DNA from: a virus
Lineage: Duplodnaviria > Heunggongvirae > Uroviricota > Caudoviricetes
Reading direction: 5' to 3' (one strand)
IMG/VR virus record: IMGVR_UViG_3300002054_000021
Location: 77,864 to 141,863 of that record
DNA: 64,000 bases
Of this stretch, positions 48,546-63,912 are shown in pieces. The first letter of the stretch is position 1; every line of letters begins with the position of its first letter. The translations under genes and the position numbers were made by a program. The notes beneath the pieces are model-generated. The model saw only the letters and a list, made by a program, of their open reading frames with translations. It did not search any database and had not been told where the DNA came from.

Positions 48546-48557
48546 TTTTCGCATCTT
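48546..48557 (+). repeat. TTTTCGCATCTT motif copy
   Basis: Followed by GACATGTCTCCATTTT, the same extension as the copy at 47700. Confidence 0.6.
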
Positions 48558-48680
48558 GACATGTCTCCATTTTCATATAAAGATATAATATCTGAGCAAA
48601 GGGTTCGACTCCCTTATTGGTGAACAATACATGTTAAGTAACTTATTCGACTTAAGGCGAAGTTGTGGAACTGCTCAGTT

Positions 48681-48728
48681 TTTTCGCATCTTCAACCGTG
48701 TCTAGTTTTCGCATCTTCAACCGTGTCT
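48681..48728 (+). repeat. tandem direct repeat 2 x TTTTCGCATCTTCAACCGTGTCT, then T8
   Basis: Two 23-nt units at 48681 and 48706. Confidence 0.65.
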
Positions 48729-48960
48729 GTTTTTTTTGAAAAAAGTGAGGCTCGAACAAGAATACATGAACGAGCCTCTGGCCCGTTTTGAGAAAACGCA
48801 ATTAGGGCCAATAATTTATATAGGGATAATTTTGTGATTTGTCAAGATGGAGCGAGTGACAAGAAAAACTAATGACTAAAAAACCTGCCACTCGCTGTCA
48901 CCATCTGTGCGACACTATATATAACCACAAAAAAAATTTGAAGTCAATGCAAAATAACTG

Positions 48961-48989
48961 TTGACGTATTATTTTATTTTTGTTATGAA
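48961..48989 (+). promoter_or_regulatory. sigma70-like promoter TTGACG-17-TATGAA for infC
   Basis: Lies 47 nt upstream of the IF3 start. Confidence 0.4.
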
Positions 48990-49035
48990 TGAGTCGTTCA
49001 ATAAAGAAAAGGTAAAACATGTTGAAAGTAAAACG

Positions 49036-49518
49036 ATGAGCAAGCCGCTTATTAATGAGATGATTACGGCGCGGGAAGTGTTGTTAATTCAAGAAGATGG
49101 TAAAAGCGATGGGGTGTGCTCTATCTTAGACGCATTAGAATATGCTAAAAGTGTCGAGTTAGATCTTGTTCAAGTGAACAATAACGCAACCCCTACATGC
49201 CGAGTTATGGATTATTCTCGCAAAAGCTTTCAGAAGAAGAAAAACAAAGGTGGTGGCCGCAAAATTAAATTGAAAGAAATTAAACTGCGTCCTAATATCT
49301 CTCAACATGATCTAGACACTAAGTTTAGAAGCATGGATAAGTTTTTCAGTAAGGGAGACCGTGTTAAAATTAGCGTTCAGTTCCGTGGCCGTGAAATATC
49401 TCATATCGAAAAAGGCAATGAGCTTATTGAAAAAATAAAAGAGAGATTCTCTGAAATCAATATTCATGCCGACTCTAAGCGTGATGGAAAAACTATCACA
49501 ATGGTTCTATCTCCATAG
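49036..49518 (+). CDS. infC: translation initiation factor IF-3 homologue
   Basis: INEMITAREV, CRVMDY and IKLKEIKLRP...VQFRGREISH...TITMVLSP align with the N- and C-domains of bacterial IF3. ATG at 49036 is the first in-frame ATG after the promoter. The track's 48961 start includes the promoter. Confidence 0.7.
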   Translation: MSKPLINEMITAREVLLIQEDGKSDGVCSILDALEYAKSVELDLVQVNNNATPTCRVMDYSRKSFQKKKNKGGGRKIKLKEIKLRPNISQHDLDTKFRSMDKFFSKGDRVKISVQFRGREISHIEKGNELIEKIKERFSEINIHADSKRDGKTITMVLSP

Positions 49519-49696
49519 GAAAAATTATGTTTAAGAATTTTATTAAAAGAATAAACACTCCTAAAGATGATTCCTTGGGAATGACTCCATTTTAAGAATT
49601 TCAACTCATGGCGGCTATTGTTATTCCTGCAATTGTTATTATTGTTGTCGGAGTGGCTGTAGTCTGGGCTATAATTGCGGGACTAATATACATTCT

Positions 49697-49972
49697 TTAA
49701 TTAAACGGTGACTCAGGGACGCCTCTTTGAGTCATCGATGCTAACATGCCTTGCATATCTTGAAATATTTTCTTTTCGGATATTATTTCCACCGCATAAG
49801 CGTCAATGAAAGATTCGAATACGGATTGATCGTCAAAATCCCATATCACCTCTTCATCGTTAGACAAGAAGAATGATATTGATTGCTCTACTCCACTAAC
49901 CCTAACATTCTCAACCTTATGGGTTGGCAATAGATCATTGTCATATGGTCTCTCTGGGTGTCTTATAATCAT
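49697..49972 (-). CDS. hypothetical protein (- strand)
   Basis: AGGAGAGGG RBS on the - strand. Has its own promoter. Confidence 0.5.
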   Translation of the reverse strand: MIIRHPERPYDNDLLPTHKVENVRVSGVEQSISFFLSNDEEVIWDFDDQSVFESFIDAYAVEIISEKKIFQDMQGMLASMTQRGVPESPFN

Positions 49973-49990
49973 ATCCCTCTCCTATTATTT

Positions 49991-50019
49991 TTATATATCA
50001 TATTTTTATTGTATTGTCA
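49991..50019 (-). promoter_or_regulatory. sigma70-like promoter (- strand) TTGACA-17-TATATA
   Basis: Divergent from the + strand promoter at 50074. Confidence 0.5.
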
Positions 50020-50073
50020 ATAATTACATATGAAAAAATATTTATCACTTGACAAACTTTTTTATTTTTCTTG

Positions 50074-52650: not shown

Positions 52651-53253
52651 TTAAAAAAACATACCGTTTATTTTTATTTGCTCATGATCTTCACATCTGT
52701 AATAATCTTTATTTGAAACAGAATATATTCTGGAAGTCAATGTAGCAATATTAATACCTTCTGCTTCTGCTGCAAGTCTTATTGTTTTGAATTTTCCATA
52801 GGGAGTTATGACAGGGTTTCTGTTCTGCTTAGATCTTCTCCCTTTTTTAGATACTCCAGTCATCCACCTGTTAATCGTCCCTTTAGATAAACCTAAATCC
52901 TTAGCTGCGGCTTTCTGTGATATATATGTGACTCCGTTTATAGTACATTCTTTATTGGTGCCGCTTAATTCTGGAGTTAAGCAACCTTTACCACCGCAAA
53001 CTTTATTATAACAGTCCTCTTGATTAACAACATTTTGAGTTACGATCTTGGACTCATATTTATAGGCGTCGTCAGCATTATCAAACTCAGATAATATTTT
53101 CATATGAAAATTTTCTTTACCGTATTCTTTTAATGCTTTTTTGAAATCTTTACCACTACCCAGATACGTGCACGGAGAGCAGTTACAAGAATGCTTTCCA
53201 ATATAGTATTTACCATTGACAAGGTTAGTAGTTTTATAGACAATATGTTTCAT
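52651..53253 (-). CDS. GIY-YIG homing endonuclease with IENR/NUMOD-type C-terminal DNA-binding helices
   Basis: N-terminus KTTNLVNGKYYIGKHS...YLGSG. GGGGAA RBS. Paralogue of the gene at 63181. Confidence 0.65.
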   Translation of the reverse strand: MKHIVYKTTNLVNGKYYIGKHSCNCSPCTYLGSGKDFKKALKEYGKENFHMKILSEFDNADDAYKYESKIVTQNVVNQEDCYNKVCGGKGCLTPELSGTNKECTINGVTYISQKAAAKDLGLSKGTINRWMTGVSKKGRRSKQNRNPVITPYGKFKTIRLAAEAEGINIATLTSRIYSVSNKDYYRCEDHEQIKINGMFF

Positions 53254-58872: not shown

Positions 58873-58900
58873 TACAGGTGCGCACATATGGAGAAGTGAA

Positions 58901-59344
58901 ATGAAGTATATATGTTTTCTTGCTTGGGCTTTCTTATTTATAAGCATGTCTTTTGATTTTGGCGGCAATATGCTTTCGATTGTAGGATCACTTACAAGTG
59001 ATAAGGATTCTGCGATTGACTCTATAGATATAGTGACTTCATTTGTCGGGTTTATTGCTATCATTTACCCCATTATTCTCATGGTTGAATCAGAGAAAAT
59101 TAATAGTAAATGGAAAAAGTCTAAAAAAACTGTTAACGAACTGATAGACGAGCGGGATAATATTGAGGCGGATTTAAATACACTCAAAAAGAAAACTGAT
59201 AGTCAAATTGAAGACTTAAGAGGAAAGCTTGAACATGCAAATTCTCAAACGATAGAATCTTATGAGACGTTCACTAAGCTTAGAGATTTTGAGGAAATAG
59301 AGAAGCTTGCTTTAGCTGAAAGAAAAGCCGTTGACGAGGGTTAA
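58901..59344 (+). CDS. membrane protein with coiled-coil C-terminus
   Basis: GGAGAAG RBS and two transmembrane segments. Confidence 0.5.
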   Translation: MKYICFLAWAFLFISMSFDFGGNMLSIVGSLTSDKDSAIDSIDIVTSFVGFIAIIYPIILMVESEKINSKWKKSKKTVNELIDERDNIEADLNTLKKKTDSQIEDLRGKLEHANSQTIESYETFTKLRDFEEIEKLALAERKAVDEG

Positions 59345-62578: not shown

Positions 62579-62650
62579 GCTAAACGGTTAAGCCACCTCC
62601 TCATAAGAGGTTGATAGTAGGTTCGATTCCTACCGCGCCTACCAAATTTC
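62579..62650 (+). tRNA. tRNA with CAT anticodon (Met or Ile-lysidine)
   Basis: Acceptor GGGCGTG/CGCGCCT, anticodon stem ACCTC/GAGGT, loop CTCATAA, T-arm GTAGG-TTCGATT-CCTAC, encoded CCA. Confidence 0.7.
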
Positions 62651-62654
62651 GCAT

Positions 62655-62703
62655 CTTTATACGCATCTTCATACATATACACTTTTCGCATCTTCACATG
62701 TAA
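62655..62703 (+). repeat. three TTTCGCATCTT-type copies (62655, 62670, 62692) plus a degenerate fourth at 62756
   Basis: Lies between two tRNA genes. No + strand ORF downstream. Confidence 0.6.
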
Positions 62704-62783
62704 AGAAACTTAAATATTCTTTGCATGATTGTCTAATATGTAAATATTTTTCGCATTTTCATAAGTATTAATGAACGCGCCTA

Positions 62784-63180: not shown

Positions 63181-63912
63181 TTAGAGTGTAGCGTTCTTCG
63201 CTACACTTTCATTTTTGATTTTAGGTACTCTTCCAGAATTTACACACTTTACTATAGTTGTGCGGTGAACTTGAAAATATTCAGCAGCCTCTTTTGTTGA
63301 TTTAAATAAAATTCCACCTAAGGTGAAATTCTTCATATTTTTCCTAAGGTAATTTGATCTTCCATTATTTTTTGCCCATCTTTTAATTGTGTTAGTGCTA
63401 ACCTTAAAATGCCTAGCGGCATCGCTATAAGATTTAAATACAATACTATCTATCACAACTTGTATAGCGTCCTTACCTCCCTTTTTTAAAGAAAGTGATT
63501 TTCCTCCTTTAGATATCCATCTCGCTATAGTTTTATTACTGACACAAAAATGTCTAGCGGCGGCTCCGTATGACTTAAAATATATGTCATCTATAGTACA
63601 TCCTATAGACCTCCTGCTTTCATTAACGTAGCAACCCTTGCCTCCGTTTATCCCGTTGTAACATTCATTTGAATCTATCATCTCTTTAGTTATAATATCG
63701 GACTCGTATTGGTAAGCCTCTTCTTCTGTCTCAAAATGCAATAAGACTTCTTTGCAAAAGTTATGCTCTCCGTATTTTTCTATTGCTTTCAATAAAGCAT
63801 AACCAGACCCTAAGTACGAACATTGATCCCCGCACCTATTAGAACAAGAATGCTTTCCAATATAGTATTTACCATTGACCAAGTTAGTAGTTTTATATAC
63901 TGTATGTTTCAT
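63181..63912 (-). CDS. GIY-YIG homing endonuclease with three or four IENR/NUMOD repeats
   Basis: N-terminus MKHTVYKTTNLVNGKYYIGKHS. GGGG RBS. Upstream cassette is shared with the gene at 52651. Confidence 0.65.
   Translation of the reverse strand: MKHTVYKTTNLVNGKYYIGKHSCSNRCGDQCSYLGSGYALLKAIEKYGEHNFCKEVLLHFETEEEAYQYESDIITKEMIDSNECYNGINGGKGCYVNESRRSIGCTIDDIYFKSYGAAARHFCVSNKTIARWISKGGKSLSLKKGGKDAIQVVIDSIVFKSYSDAARHFKVSTNTIKRWAKNNGRSNYLRKNMKNFTLGGILFKSTKEAAEYFQVHRTTIVKCVNSGRVPKIKNESVAKNATL

What the first reader, a model, noticed from the sequence alone, without database searches (positions are those of the whole stretch)
48546..49518. Phage-encoded IF3 (infC) homologue behind a 470-nt structured, repeat-laden leader
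The ORF at 49036-49518 aligns along its whole length with bacterial IF3. The N-domain shows INEMITAREV...CRVMDY and the C-domain shows KLKEIKLRP...VQFRGREISH...TITMVLSP. The non-coding region upstream contains one single and one tandem copy of the TTTTCGCATCTT element, an 8-bp hairpin (GAGGCTCG...CGAGCCTC, 48746-48778), a nested hairpin (TGGCCC-GTTTTgagAAAAC-GGGCCA) and a roughly 14-bp imperfect long stem (48846-48908), followed by the gene's own promoter. Host infC is autoregulated at translation initiation. A phage copy could bias start-codon or leaderless-mRNA selection during infection. This phage uses many TTG and GTG starts and has at least one gene (39848) with the motif almost abutting the ATG.
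Basis: partly seen in the sequence, partly recalled or inferred. Interest (0 to 1): 0.7.

Follow-up and report, generated by a model that had tools for sequence, protein, structure and literature searches.

The report
Phage-encoded translation initiation factor IF3
A tailed phage of a previously unsampled lineage carries its own complete copy of the bacterial translation initiation factor IF3; such genes are already annotated in giant phages, and the long "leader" in front of it is a patchwork of phage-wide signals rather than an infC-specific regulator.

Summary
The ORF at 49036-49518 (+) is a genuine two-domain IF3. It passes Pfam IF3_N and IF3_C and NCBIfam TIGR00168 (151.8 bits, cut-off 60). 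An AlphaFold model superposes on solved IF3 domains at 1.3-1.5 Å. The window is a myovirus-like phage with no close GenBank relative. One related metagenomic contig (L001) has the same gene at 70% identity. There it evolves half as fast as its neighbours, so it is under selection.

However, TTTTCGCATCTT is a phage-wide, strand-specific intergenic motif and not an infC element. A conserved sigma70-type promoter lies 47-75 nt upstream of the ATG, so the proximal mRNA leader is about 40 nt, not 470.

The gene starts at AUG, not the AUU that underlies host autoregulation. A conserved six-codon uORF ends in ATGA across this start. The distal 300 nt holds position-conserved hairpins of unresolved function. 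On the minus strand, one of them plus T6 is the best terminator candidate for a convergent gene. A tRNA remnant is also present.

Phage IF3 genes are already annotated in jumbo phages, with no function tested. Verdict: new member of a known kind, moderate-to-low interest.

The parts
49036..49518 (+). infC homologue: 160-aa two-domain IF3 with an ATG start and TAG stop
   Evidence: Pfam IF3_N 7.1e-20 and IF3_C 2.4e-27. TIGR00168 scores 151.8 bits against a cut-off of 60. The best PDB sequence match is an IF-3 chain of entry 5me0, 8.3e-33. The AlphaFold model has mean pLDDT 84; its domains match 1tif at 1.3 Å and 1tig at 1.5 Å. It is 70% identical to P0001 in L001.
49019..49039 (+). Six-codon upstream ORF (ATG TTG AAA GTA AAA CGA TGA). 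Its stop overlaps the infC ATG as ATGA. It is preceded by AAGGT 5 nt upstream.
   Evidence: Read from the sequence. L001 has the same arrangement (ATG TTG AAG GTA AAC AAA TGA, with GAGGT upstream). The SD-spacer unit is duplicated, AAGGTAAAAC / AAAGTAAAAC (repeat D3). Translation of this uORF is inferred, not shown.
48961..48989 (+). Sigma70-type promoter: -35 TTGACG (48961-48966), 17-nt T-rich spacer, TGn (48981-48983), -10 TATGAA (48984-48989). The inferred transcription start is near 48996.
   Evidence: L001 has TTGCAA-17-(TGg)TATAAA in a block that is 70% identical over 113 nt, while synonymous sites are saturated. The same architecture occurs at L001 9253, upstream of another gene. The built-in consensus scan did not list it because the last base of the -10 is A.
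48846..48905 (.). Hairpin C: GATGG-AGCGAGTG ... CACTCGCT-gtca-CCATC
   Evidence: -20.2 kcal/mol, z = -3.8. L001 has a different, weaker hairpin at the same relative position, after the conserved TGTCAAGA (z = -1.1).
48833..48847 (+). Conserved block TGTGATTTGTCAAGA, function unknown
   Evidence: 12 of 15 nt are identical to L001 6603-6617, colinear with the other conserved blocks.
48779..48810 (.). Hairpin B: TGGCCC ... GGGCCA with an inner GTTTT/AAAAC stem
   Evidence: -13.4 kcal/mol, z = -3.2. L001 has an unrelated 8-bp hairpin directly after hairpin A (z = -4.1). Position is conserved, sequence is not.
48747..48778 (.). Hairpin A: 8-bp GC-rich stem with a 16-nt loop. On the minus strand it is followed by AC + TTTTTT, which makes it terminator-like.
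   Evidence: z = -4.9. It is 82% identical to L001 6533-6560, with one A-U to G-C double change at the stem base. It is the strongest minus-strand hairpin + T-run in the window, -18.1 kcal/mol.
48730..48744 (.). T8/A6 block TTTTTTTTGAAAAAA. On the minus strand it provides the T6 tract after hairpin A.
   Evidence: 14 of 15 nt are identical to L001 6492-6506. In L001 a small hairpin (CACGG...CCGTG) precedes the T6 on the minus strand.
48681..48730 (+). Two tandem 25-nt repeats, each starting with the phage-wide motif TTTTCGCATCTT
   Evidence: L001 has two motif copies 29 nt apart at the same position.
48599..48623 (+). tRNA remnant: T-arm AAGGG-TTCGACT-CCCTT plus the 3' acceptor strand ATTGGTG and discriminator A. 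No 5' half is present.
   Evidence: GGTTCGANTCC occurs 4 times in the window against 0.01 expected, and the other three copies are real tRNAs. Neither ARAGORN nor Rfam calls a tRNA here. The segment is absent from L001.
48546..48557 (+). Single copy of the phage-wide motif, starting directly after the stop codon of the upstream gene
49697..49972 (-). Convergent 91-aa ORFan whose transcript would run antisense into infC
   Evidence: Its homologue in L001 (7289-7573, minus strand, 40-42% identity) ends 1 nt from the infC stop. SD GGAGAGGG and sigma70-like hexamers were read from the sequence at 49976-50036.

Best explanation
The phage encodes a complete IF3 that should be able to bind the ribosome. 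The gene forms its own small transcription unit inside a block of early-type ORFan genes.

Shown:
- Membership of the IF3 family at sequence and fold level.
- Retention of the residues used by E. coli IF3 to bind the 30S subunit: R99, D106, K110, F130, R131, G132, R133, E134 and H137.
- Stronger purifying selection than on neighbouring genes.
- A promoter, leader and start region conserved in the single known relative.

Inferred:
- The protein binds host 30S subunits like cellular IF3. It would supplement or replace the host factor during infection, keeping subunits dissociated and initiation-competent for phage mRNAs.
- Host RNA polymerase transcribes the gene from the proximal sigma70-type promoter, giving a leader of about 40 nt.
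- Ribosomes load at the cassette's canonical ribosome-binding site, translate a six-codon uORF, and restart at the overlapping AUG (AUGA). Excess IF3 is known to suppress re-initiation, so this would give negative feedback by a route different from the host's AUU start codon.

The upstream 400 nt is not an infC-specific leader but a composite of four things:
- a phage-wide intergenic motif in tandem, probably a phage-specific promoter or transcription signal;
- a tRNA remnant;
- three hairpins;
- a hairpin + T6 that, on the minus strand, probably terminates the antisense transcript of the convergent downstream gene.
For: Family and fold.

Conserved 30S-contact residues. The K110L mutant of E. 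coli IF3 does not bind 30S (PMC7145577).

Phage context: tail sheath, tape measure, baseplate, T5-A1-like protein, rIIA/rIIB and four tRNAs. There is no thrS, rpmI or rplT next to the gene.

Selection: IF3 dN is 0.25 against 0.51-0.53 for four syntenic neighbours, with synonymous sites saturated. The gene's GC content is 38% against 36% for the window. IF3 is the best conserved protein of the shared block.

Start codon: the in-frame upstream extension is closed by a stop in L001.

Promoter family and leader.

uORF in both phages.

IF3 overexpression markedly lowers re-initiation in E. coli (PMC2268962).

Motif is genome-wide.

Minus-strand terminator candidate and convergent gene.
Against: There are no expression or activity data.

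Only one relative exists, so conservation of the uORF, hairpins and promoter rests on two sequences. I estimate the uORF alone could arise by chance at roughly the 1-10% level.

The -10 hexamer lacks the usual final T (TATGAA / TATAAA), and the consensus scanner did not list the site.

The phage protein differs from typical cellular IF3 in several ways: a shorter N-terminal tail, a linker 3-4 residues shorter, Y107L, R129Q/N and G71S/A. Its properties on the ribosome may therefore differ.

No plus-strand terminator separates the tandem motifs from infC. Long-leader transcripts may therefore exist.

The host is unknown.
Confidence: 0.55

Rival explanations
1. Long structured leader or separate small RNA. 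Transcription starts at the tandem TTTTCGCATCTT motifs. The first 230 nt or so fold into a closed domain of three hairpins. This domain either regulates infC translation or stability, or is released as a non-coding RNA.
For: The region folds better than shuffles in both phages: z = -3.95 for the window and -4.67 for L001. In both, the minimum-energy fold closes the domain with a long-range helix that starts just after the second motif. Hairpins A and B are conserved in position while B differs completely in sequence. Hairpin A has one compensatory change. No conserved ORF lies in the region. No plus-strand terminator lies before infC. It is the second largest ORF-free gap in the window.
Against: The motif has not been shown to be a promoter. 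No Rfam family matches, including the L20 leader of Bacillus infC operons. No convincing pairing between the domain and the infC ribosome-binding site was found. Hairpin C is weak in L001 (z = -1.1). With two sequences, covariation cannot be tested. A hairpin forms equally well on either strand, and wobble/mismatch evidence is one for each strand.
Confidence: 0.25
2. The phage IF3 is a weapon rather than a spare part. An altered-specificity or dominant factor changes which mRNAs are initiated. It could suppress leaderless or re-initiation-dependent translation of the host or of competing phages, or counter a host defence that targets translation.
For: IF3 overexpression blocks M13 propagation and lowers re-initiation (PMC2268962). 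The phage copy carries substitutions at positions nearly invariant in the bacterial sample: G71, Y107, R129 and a shorter linker. Position 107 is aliphatic in 11 of 13 phage IF3s from several lineages. The gene lies among early-type ORFans typical of host-takeover regions.
Against: Leu107 also occurs in ordinary bacterial IF3 encoded in thrS-infC-rpmI-rplT operons, and Phe occupies this position in a solved IF-3 chain. The core 30S-binding residues are intact, which fits a normal factor equally well. Nothing here measures fidelity.
Confidence: 0.15
3. A recently captured, functionless passenger copy of a host infC gene.
For: Some GenBank 'phage' IF3 hits are probably host DNA next to prophages, such as the 41-52 kb Vibrio records and the 47.5-kb Pseudomonas record.
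Against: The best cellular homologues are only about 45% identical. The gene's composition matches the phage. It is retained in synteny in a relative whose synonymous sites are saturated, and it evolves half as fast as its neighbours. It has phage-type expression signals and lacks the bacterial operon partners.
Confidence: 0.03

Closest known systems
Bacterial translation initiation factor IF3 (InfC; NCBIfam TIGR00168; Pfam IF3_N + IF3_C)
   Same: It has both domains and a Lys-rich linker. The fold matches solved structures. R99, D106, K110, F130-E134 and H137 are conserved. Identity is 36-45% to cellular IF3s.
   Different: It is encoded by a phage, outside thrS-infC-rpmI-rplT. It starts at AUG instead of AUU, as seen by comparison with L282. 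The N-terminal tail has about 6 residues before the conserved Asn, against 11-21 in most of the sample. The linker is 3-4 residues shorter. It carries Y107L, R129Q/N and G71S/A.
IF3 homologues annotated in jumbo and huge phages: Cronobacter phage GAP32 gp313, Pectobacterium phage CBB, Salmonella phage PHA46/Munch, Vibrio phage 2.275.O, Agrobacterium phage Atu_ph07 AUZ94813, Sinorhizobium phage Phosso, E. coli phage Sharanji, and uncultured phages LR756500-LR756511
   Same: These are phage-borne two-domain IF3 genes of untested function. They are discussed as possible aids to phage translation or ribosome takeover (PMC7824862; PMC11895373). They use canonical start codons (ATG, TTG, GTG).
   Different: They are only 26-36% identical to the window protein, less than cellular IF3s are, so this is a separate acquisition or lineage. 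Several of them have lost R99, R131, E134 or H137, all of which the window copy keeps. Five of the seven annotated records fetched have a Clp, ClpS-like or S21 gene next to IF3. The window has none of these. The genome size of the window phage is unknown, beyond being over 64 kb.
Autoregulation of cellular infC: AUU start-codon discrimination in E. coli, and the L20-dependent leader/attenuator of the Bacillus infC-rpmI-rplT operon (PMC1865079)
   Same: There is a non-coding region upstream of an infC gene, with potential for feedback at the initiation step.
   Different: There is no AUU start. There are no rpmI or rplT genes. No match to any Rfam leader family was found. The candidate feedback element here is a six-codon uORF overlapping the start.
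Promoter-plus-stem-loop cassettes that flank early ORFans in T4-type phages
   Same: Repeated units of terminator hairpin, T-run, -35 and -10 sit in front of small early genes. The infC proximal promoter and leader resemble these units.
   Different: The sequences are unrelated to T4. Here many units also carry an inverted copy of the -35 region (GAGTCAAC) just before the ribosome-binding site.

Membership tests
IF3 (InfC) | N-terminal IF3_N domain | tested here: met
   PF05198 at 7.1e-20, 71.4 bits against a cut-off of 26.9, covering residues 6-70. The model matches 1tif at 1.3 Å over 74 columns.
IF3 (InfC) | C-terminal IF3_C domain, the 30S-binding domain | tested here: met
   PF00707 at 2.4e-27, 95.1 bits against a cut-off of 34.8, covering residues 77-160. 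The model matches 1tig at 1.5 Å over 85 columns.
IF3 (InfC) | Full-length equivalog score above the curated cut-off | tested here: met
   TIGR00168 scores 151.8 bits against 60, matching profile positions 4-167 of 170.
IF3 (InfC) | Basic inter-domain linker | tested here: met
   The linker is Lys-rich (KSFQKKKNKGGGRKIKLK). The model shows a helix at 60-72 followed by a low-confidence stretch. It is 3-4 residues shorter than in 115 of 120 bacterial sequences.
IF3 (InfC) | Residues implicated in 30S binding (E. coli R99, K110, R131, R133 and others) | tested here: met
   R99, D106, K110, F130, R131, G132, R133, E134 and H137 are all conserved. Y107 is replaced by L and R129 by Q.
IF3 (InfC) | Binds the 30S subunit, prevents subunit association and proofreads the start codon and initiator tRNA | not testable with these tools
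   This needs biochemistry or genetics.
Cellular infC locus and regulation | Non-canonical AUU (or AUA) start codon used for autoregulation | tested here: not met
   The start is ATG in both the window and L001. The upstream frame is closed by a stop in L001. The bacterial comparator L282 has GGAGGTGA-cac-ATT.
Cellular infC locus and regulation | Operon context thrS-infC-rpmI-rplT | tested here: not met
   The neighbours are ORFans with no family match, and a convergent ORFan lies downstream. Compare L282.
Known RNA leaders and riboregulators (Rfam, including the L20 leader) | A match to a curated covariance model | tested here: not met
   Only tRNAs reach the gathering score in the window. 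Nothing below E = 0.3 was found in the two intergenic regions.
Intrinsic (Rho-independent) terminator, minus strand | GC-rich hairpin followed closely by a T-run | tested here: inconclusive
   An 8-bp stem (6 G-C pairs), then AC, then T6, at -18.1 kcal/mol. It is the best on that strand in my permissive scan. Its 16-nt loop is longer than the standard scanner allows. In L001 a different small hairpin precedes the T6.
Sigma70-type promoter | -35 and -10 hexamers 16-18 nt apart | tested here: inconclusive
   TTGACG-17-TATGAA with TGn is conserved in L001 and resembles other cassettes. The -10 lacks the final T, and the site is below the scanner's rule.

The most novel reading that the evidence does not exclude
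The phage has replaced the host's AUU-based infC feedback with a different circuit. IF3 would be made mainly by termination-reinitiation from a six-codon uORF whose stop overlaps the infC AUG, a step that excess IF3 itself suppresses. A convergent early gene would send an antisense transcript across infC, ending at the hairpin-T6 upstream. The extra IF3 would meanwhile shift the infected cell away from re-initiation-dependent and leaderless translation, favouring phage messages or excluding rival phages.
Probability: 0.12. Interest if true: 0.6.

Novelty: new member of a known kind. Interest (0 to 1): 0.35.

Why it matters
Phage-borne translation factors are widely catalogued, mostly in giant phages, but none of the IF3 copies has been tested.

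This copy is the most bacterial-like of those compared, because it keeps all the checked 30S-contact residues. It is clearly under selection and comes with compact, conserved expression signals. That makes it a reasonable candidate for a first functional test of what a phage gains from its own IF3.

The uORF/ATGA arrangement gives a concrete, cheap hypothesis for IF3 feedback without an AUU codon.

None of this changes current understanding unless experiments show altered initiation specificity.

Tried and rejected
Searches that led nowhere:
- Near-identity search of 2.5 kb against GenBank phages found no match.
- IMG/VR scans with the protein and with the two-sequence alignment found no relatives.
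- A single-motif scan of IMG/VR returned only one-copy chance hits.
- Tandem-motif scans of IMG/VR and JGI metagenomes returned many hits, but tblastn showed none is related to the window.
- Genome-collection scans with the phage-specific peptides and with the tRNA remnant found nothing.
- The exact protein is not on record in the assembly index.
- Literature searches for the motif and for the run accession ERR4592243 were uninformative.
- Rfam gave nothing for either intergenic region.

Ideas rejected:
- A longer IF3 starting at ATG 48985 or TTG 48961. L001 has an in-frame stop there.
- Conserved small proteins in the gap. The 33-aa and 30-aa ORFs in the window and the 25-aa and 28-aa ORFs in L001 fall in different frames over the conserved DNA.
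- The motif as a sigma70 -35 box or a T4 MotA-type box. No -10 element sits at a fixed distance downstream.
- Tyr107 to aliphatic as a phage-specific signature. It also occurs in ordinary bacterial infC operons.
- Pairing between the hairpin A loop (ACAUGA) and the leader. It gives only 4-5 bp and is not convincing.
Full report
**Observation.** The region was read directly and its ORFs listed.
- Exact TTTTCGCATCTT copies lie at 48546, 48681 and 48706. The last two are in a 25-nt tandem repeat.
- The 8-bp hairpin is at 48747-48754 and 48771-48778. The nested hairpin is at 48779-48810. The imperfect long stem is at 48846-48905. All are present and fold far better than shuffles, with z = -4.9, -3.2 and -3.8.
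- The gap is 490 nt, the second largest ORF-free stretch of the window. It is more structured than shuffled sequence, with z = -2.9 to -3.95.

**The gene.**
- Pfam gives IF3_N (7.1e-20) and IF3_C (2.4e-27), both well above their cut-offs.
- The NCBIfam equivalog TIGR00168 scores 151.8 bits against a cut-off of 60, over almost the whole profile.
- The best solved relatives are bacterial IF3 chains, the top one at 8.3e-33.
- An AlphaFold model (mean pLDDT 84) has the expected two alpha/beta domains joined by a helix and a flexible segment. The domains superpose on 1tif and 1tig at 1.3 and 1.5 Å.
- Aligned with E. coli IF3 and 119 database homologues, the protein keeps R99, D106, K110, F130, R131, G132, R133, E134 and H137. 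K110L is a known non-binding mutant (PMC7145577).
- It differs in having a short N-terminal tail, a linker 3-4 residues shorter, G71S, Y107L and R129Q.

**Context.**
- The window carries tail sheath, tape measure, baseplate, a T5-A1-like protein, Rad52- and RecA-like proteins, rIIA/rIIB, homing-endonuclease-like genes and four tRNAs. Almost all lie on one strand.
- The best protein matches to GenBank phages are only 26-35% identical, and there is no near DNA match. This is a phage of an unsampled lineage.
- The IF3 gene lies among ORFans, with none of the bacterial partners thrS, rpmI or rplT.

**The one relative.**
- Among 5.8 billion clustered proteins the only close homologue is P0001, at 70% identity. 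The next best, all cellular-type IF3s, are about 45%.
- P0001 lies on a 13-kb Logan contig (L001) that is syntenic with the window.
- Synonymous sites between the two phages are saturated.
- IF3 has dN 0.25, against 0.51-0.53 for four neighbouring gene pairs. Its GC content (38%) matches the phage.
- The gene is therefore long resident and under stronger constraint than its surroundings.

**Start codon and leader.**
- The longest ORF begins at TTG 48961, but in L001 the in-frame upstream stretch contains a stop nine codons before the ATG. The resemblance of the upstream 'translation' is DNA conservation, not coding.
- Both copies therefore start at ATG.
- A bacterial homologue fetched for comparison (P0030, L282) sits in thrS-infC-rpmI-rplT. 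It shows GGAGGTGA-cac-ATT in frame just upstream of the called start, the classical infC arrangement.
- The host-type AUU autoregulation therefore cannot apply to the phage gene.

**Proximal promoter.**
- The sequence TTGACG-17 nt-TATGAA, preceded by TGn, lies at 48961-48989.
- It sits in the longest conserved non-coding block, 70% identical over 113 nt, 48920-49032 against L001 6687-6798.
- It has the same layout as another L001 promoter-like site, TTGACA-tagta-TTTTATTTTTC-c-TATTAA, upstream of gene 9309.
- The window and L001 contain a family of such units in front of plus-strand genes. Each has a terminator hairpin, a T-run or UP-like TTTATTTTT, TTGAC(T/A)C, a weak -10, then GA(G/A)TCAAC, an A-rich spacer, AAGG and ATG.
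- The infC leader (GAGTCGTTCAATAAAGAAAAGGTAAAAC-ATG) fits this pattern.
- The ATG that occupies the cassette's usual start position opens a six-codon ORF (MLKVKR; MLKVNK in L001). Its TGA overlaps the infC ATG.
- A second, duplicated SD-spacer unit precedes the infC ATG (repeat D3). It is weak in the window (AAAGT) and good in L001 (AAGGT).
- The 40-nt leader is not unusually structured (z = +0.3).
- IF3 overexpression markedly lowers re-initiation in E. coli (PMC2268962). The arrangement could therefore give negative feedback. This is an inference resting on two sequences.

**The distal 400 nt.**
- TTTTCGCATCTT is not specific to infC. There are 10 exact copies in the window, all on the plus strand, and 5 in L001.
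- The consensus extends to about 20 nt.
- In about 10 of 14 sites the motif begins 0-2 nt after the TAA of the preceding gene. The distance to the next start codon varies from 5 to 65 nt. Tandem copies are 12-29 nt apart.
- No -10 element follows at a fixed distance, so it is not an ordinary sigma70 promoter.
- A phage-specific promoter or transcription signal is the most economical reading, but this remains untested.
- The first 135 nt of the gap (48546-48680) are missing in L001. They contain a tRNA T-arm plus 3' acceptor strand at 48599-48623. The T-loop pattern occurs 4 times against 0.01 expected, and the other three are real tRNAs. No tRNA is called by ARAGORN or Rfam.
- Colinear conserved blocks are the tandem motifs, a T/A block, hairpin A (82% identical, with one A-U to G-C double change), TGTGATTTGTCAAGA, and the promoter/leader.
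- Between these blocks, hairpins B and C occupy the same positions in both phages but with unrelated sequences. B is strong in both, while C is weak in L001.
- In both phages the minimum-energy fold closes the hairpins into one domain that begins just after the second motif.
- No Rfam family matches, and no ORF is conserved.

**Minus strand.**
- A 91-aa ORFan (49697-49972) converges on infC. Its L001 homologue stops 1 nt from the infC stop. Its transcript must therefore enter infC antisense.
- A permissive hairpin + T-run scan finds the strongest minus-strand candidate of the whole window exactly at hairpin A + AC + T6, at -18.1 kcal/mol.
- In L001 a small hairpin + GA + T6 lies in the same conserved T/A block.
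- This offers a function for part of the 'leader' that has nothing to do with infC translation. It does not explain hairpins B and C.

**Comparison with what is known.**
- tblastn finds IF3 in 53 GenBank phage records. The 21 with a named phage and genome length of at least 300 kb, plus five uncultured phages of 462-735 kb, are jumbo or huge phages. Most of the rest are short unannotated fragments or records that probably include host DNA.
- Reviews and genome papers note these genes and speculate on ribosome rescue or takeover, without experiments (PMC7824862; PMC11895373).
- Those proteins are 26-36% identical to the window copy, less than cellular IF3s are. Several have lost R99, R131, E134 or H137.
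- Of the seven annotated records fetched, five have a Clp, ClpS-like or S21 gene next to IF3.
- Position 107 is aliphatic in 11 of 13 phage copies. However, Leu107 also occurs in ordinary bacterial infC operons, so I do not treat it as a phage signature.

**Verdict.**
- The IF3 call is solid.
- The 'leader' is a composite whose infC-proximal part is a short promoter/uORF cassette. Its distal part is shared phage signals plus hairpins of unresolved function.
- This is a new member of a known kind. Interest is moderate to low unless the uORF feedback or an altered initiation specificity is demonstrated.

Noticed in passing
window 28584, 39831, 47090, 47700, 47983/48012, 48546, 48681/48706, 55058/55081, 58861, 62646-62759; L001 4152, 5512, 5987, 6404/6433, 12263/12280: TTTTCGCATCTT(C/T)A is a strand-specific intergenic motif of about 20 nt, conserved between two phages whose synonymous sites are saturated. 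It usually starts 0-2 nt after the upstream TAA stop and is often in tandem. It lies 5-65 nt before the next start codon and has no fixed -10 element. Four copies sit right after tRNA-Met, at the end of the plus-strand gene block. It is probably a phage-specific promoter or transcription signal; an RNA-level signal is not excluded.
   Followed up: partly
window 50061, 51147, 51676, 53365, 59347, 59923, 60262, 62987; L001 7688, 8518, 9240, 11349: A second family of repeated intergenic cassettes. Each has a terminator hairpin, TTTATTTTT (T-run or UP-like), TTGAC(T/A)C as the -35, a weak -10, and then GA(G/A)TCAAC, an inverted copy of the -35 region, just before the SD. The arrangement resembles the promoter/stem-loop cassettes around early ORFans of T4-type phages. 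The inverted repeat could be an operator, or a hairpin that forms only in read-through transcripts.
   Followed up: partly
window 48599-48623: An orphan tRNA 3' fragment: T-arm AAGGG-TTCGACT-CCCTT, acceptor strand ATTGGTG and discriminator A, with no 5' half. It is absent from the related contig. There is no exact match in 185,579 reference genomes. It is probably the remnant of a decayed phage tRNA gene.
   Followed up: partly
window 49528-49596 and 49608-49700 (+): Two tiny ORFs lie between infC and the convergent gene. One is 22 aa. The other is a 30-aa, almost entirely hydrophobic peptide (MAAIVIPAIVIIVVGVAVVWAIIAGLIYIL). Neither has an obvious SD, and the whole segment is missing in L001, where the two genes abut.
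   Followed up: no
window 58888-58903: A second mini-uORF arrangement: ATG GAG AAG TGA A ATG. This is a three-codon ORF containing the SD (GGAG) of the downstream gene, which starts at 58901.
   Followed up: no
L271-L275, L280, L281 (GAP32, Vibrio phage 2.275.O, Phosso, Atu_ph07, PHA46, XaC1, CBB): In five of the seven annotated jumbo-phage records fetched (GAP32, Vibrio phage 2.275.O, Phosso, Atu_ph07, PHA46), the IF3 gene lies next to a ClpS-like adaptor, Clp ATPase or protease gene. In one of these it also lies next to a ribosomal protein S21 gene. This linkage recurs across lineages and is absent from the window.
   Followed up: no
alignment of 13 phage IF3s: E. coli Tyr107 is replaced by Leu, Ile, Met or Val in 11 of 13 phage IF3s from at least five lineages. 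The GAP32-like group has also lost R99, R131, E134 and H137. Leu107 also occurs in some ordinary bacterial IF3s, so its meaning is unclear.
   Followed up: partly
window, whole: Roughly 40% of the longer plus-strand ORFs have no recognisable Shine-Dalgarno match of 4 nt or more before their first ATG, while others have perfect AGGAGGT. Several non-ATG starts are well supported by strong SDs, for example GTG 26945 and TTG 20640. The analysis was crude, and the host is unknown.
   Followed up: partly
window 52651-53253 (-) and 63181-63912 (-); L001 10153-11274 (-): Homing-endonuclease-like genes (GIY-YIG type) sit on the opposite strand to the surrounding genes. The window ORFs share 43-48% identity with the one in L001.
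   Followed up: no
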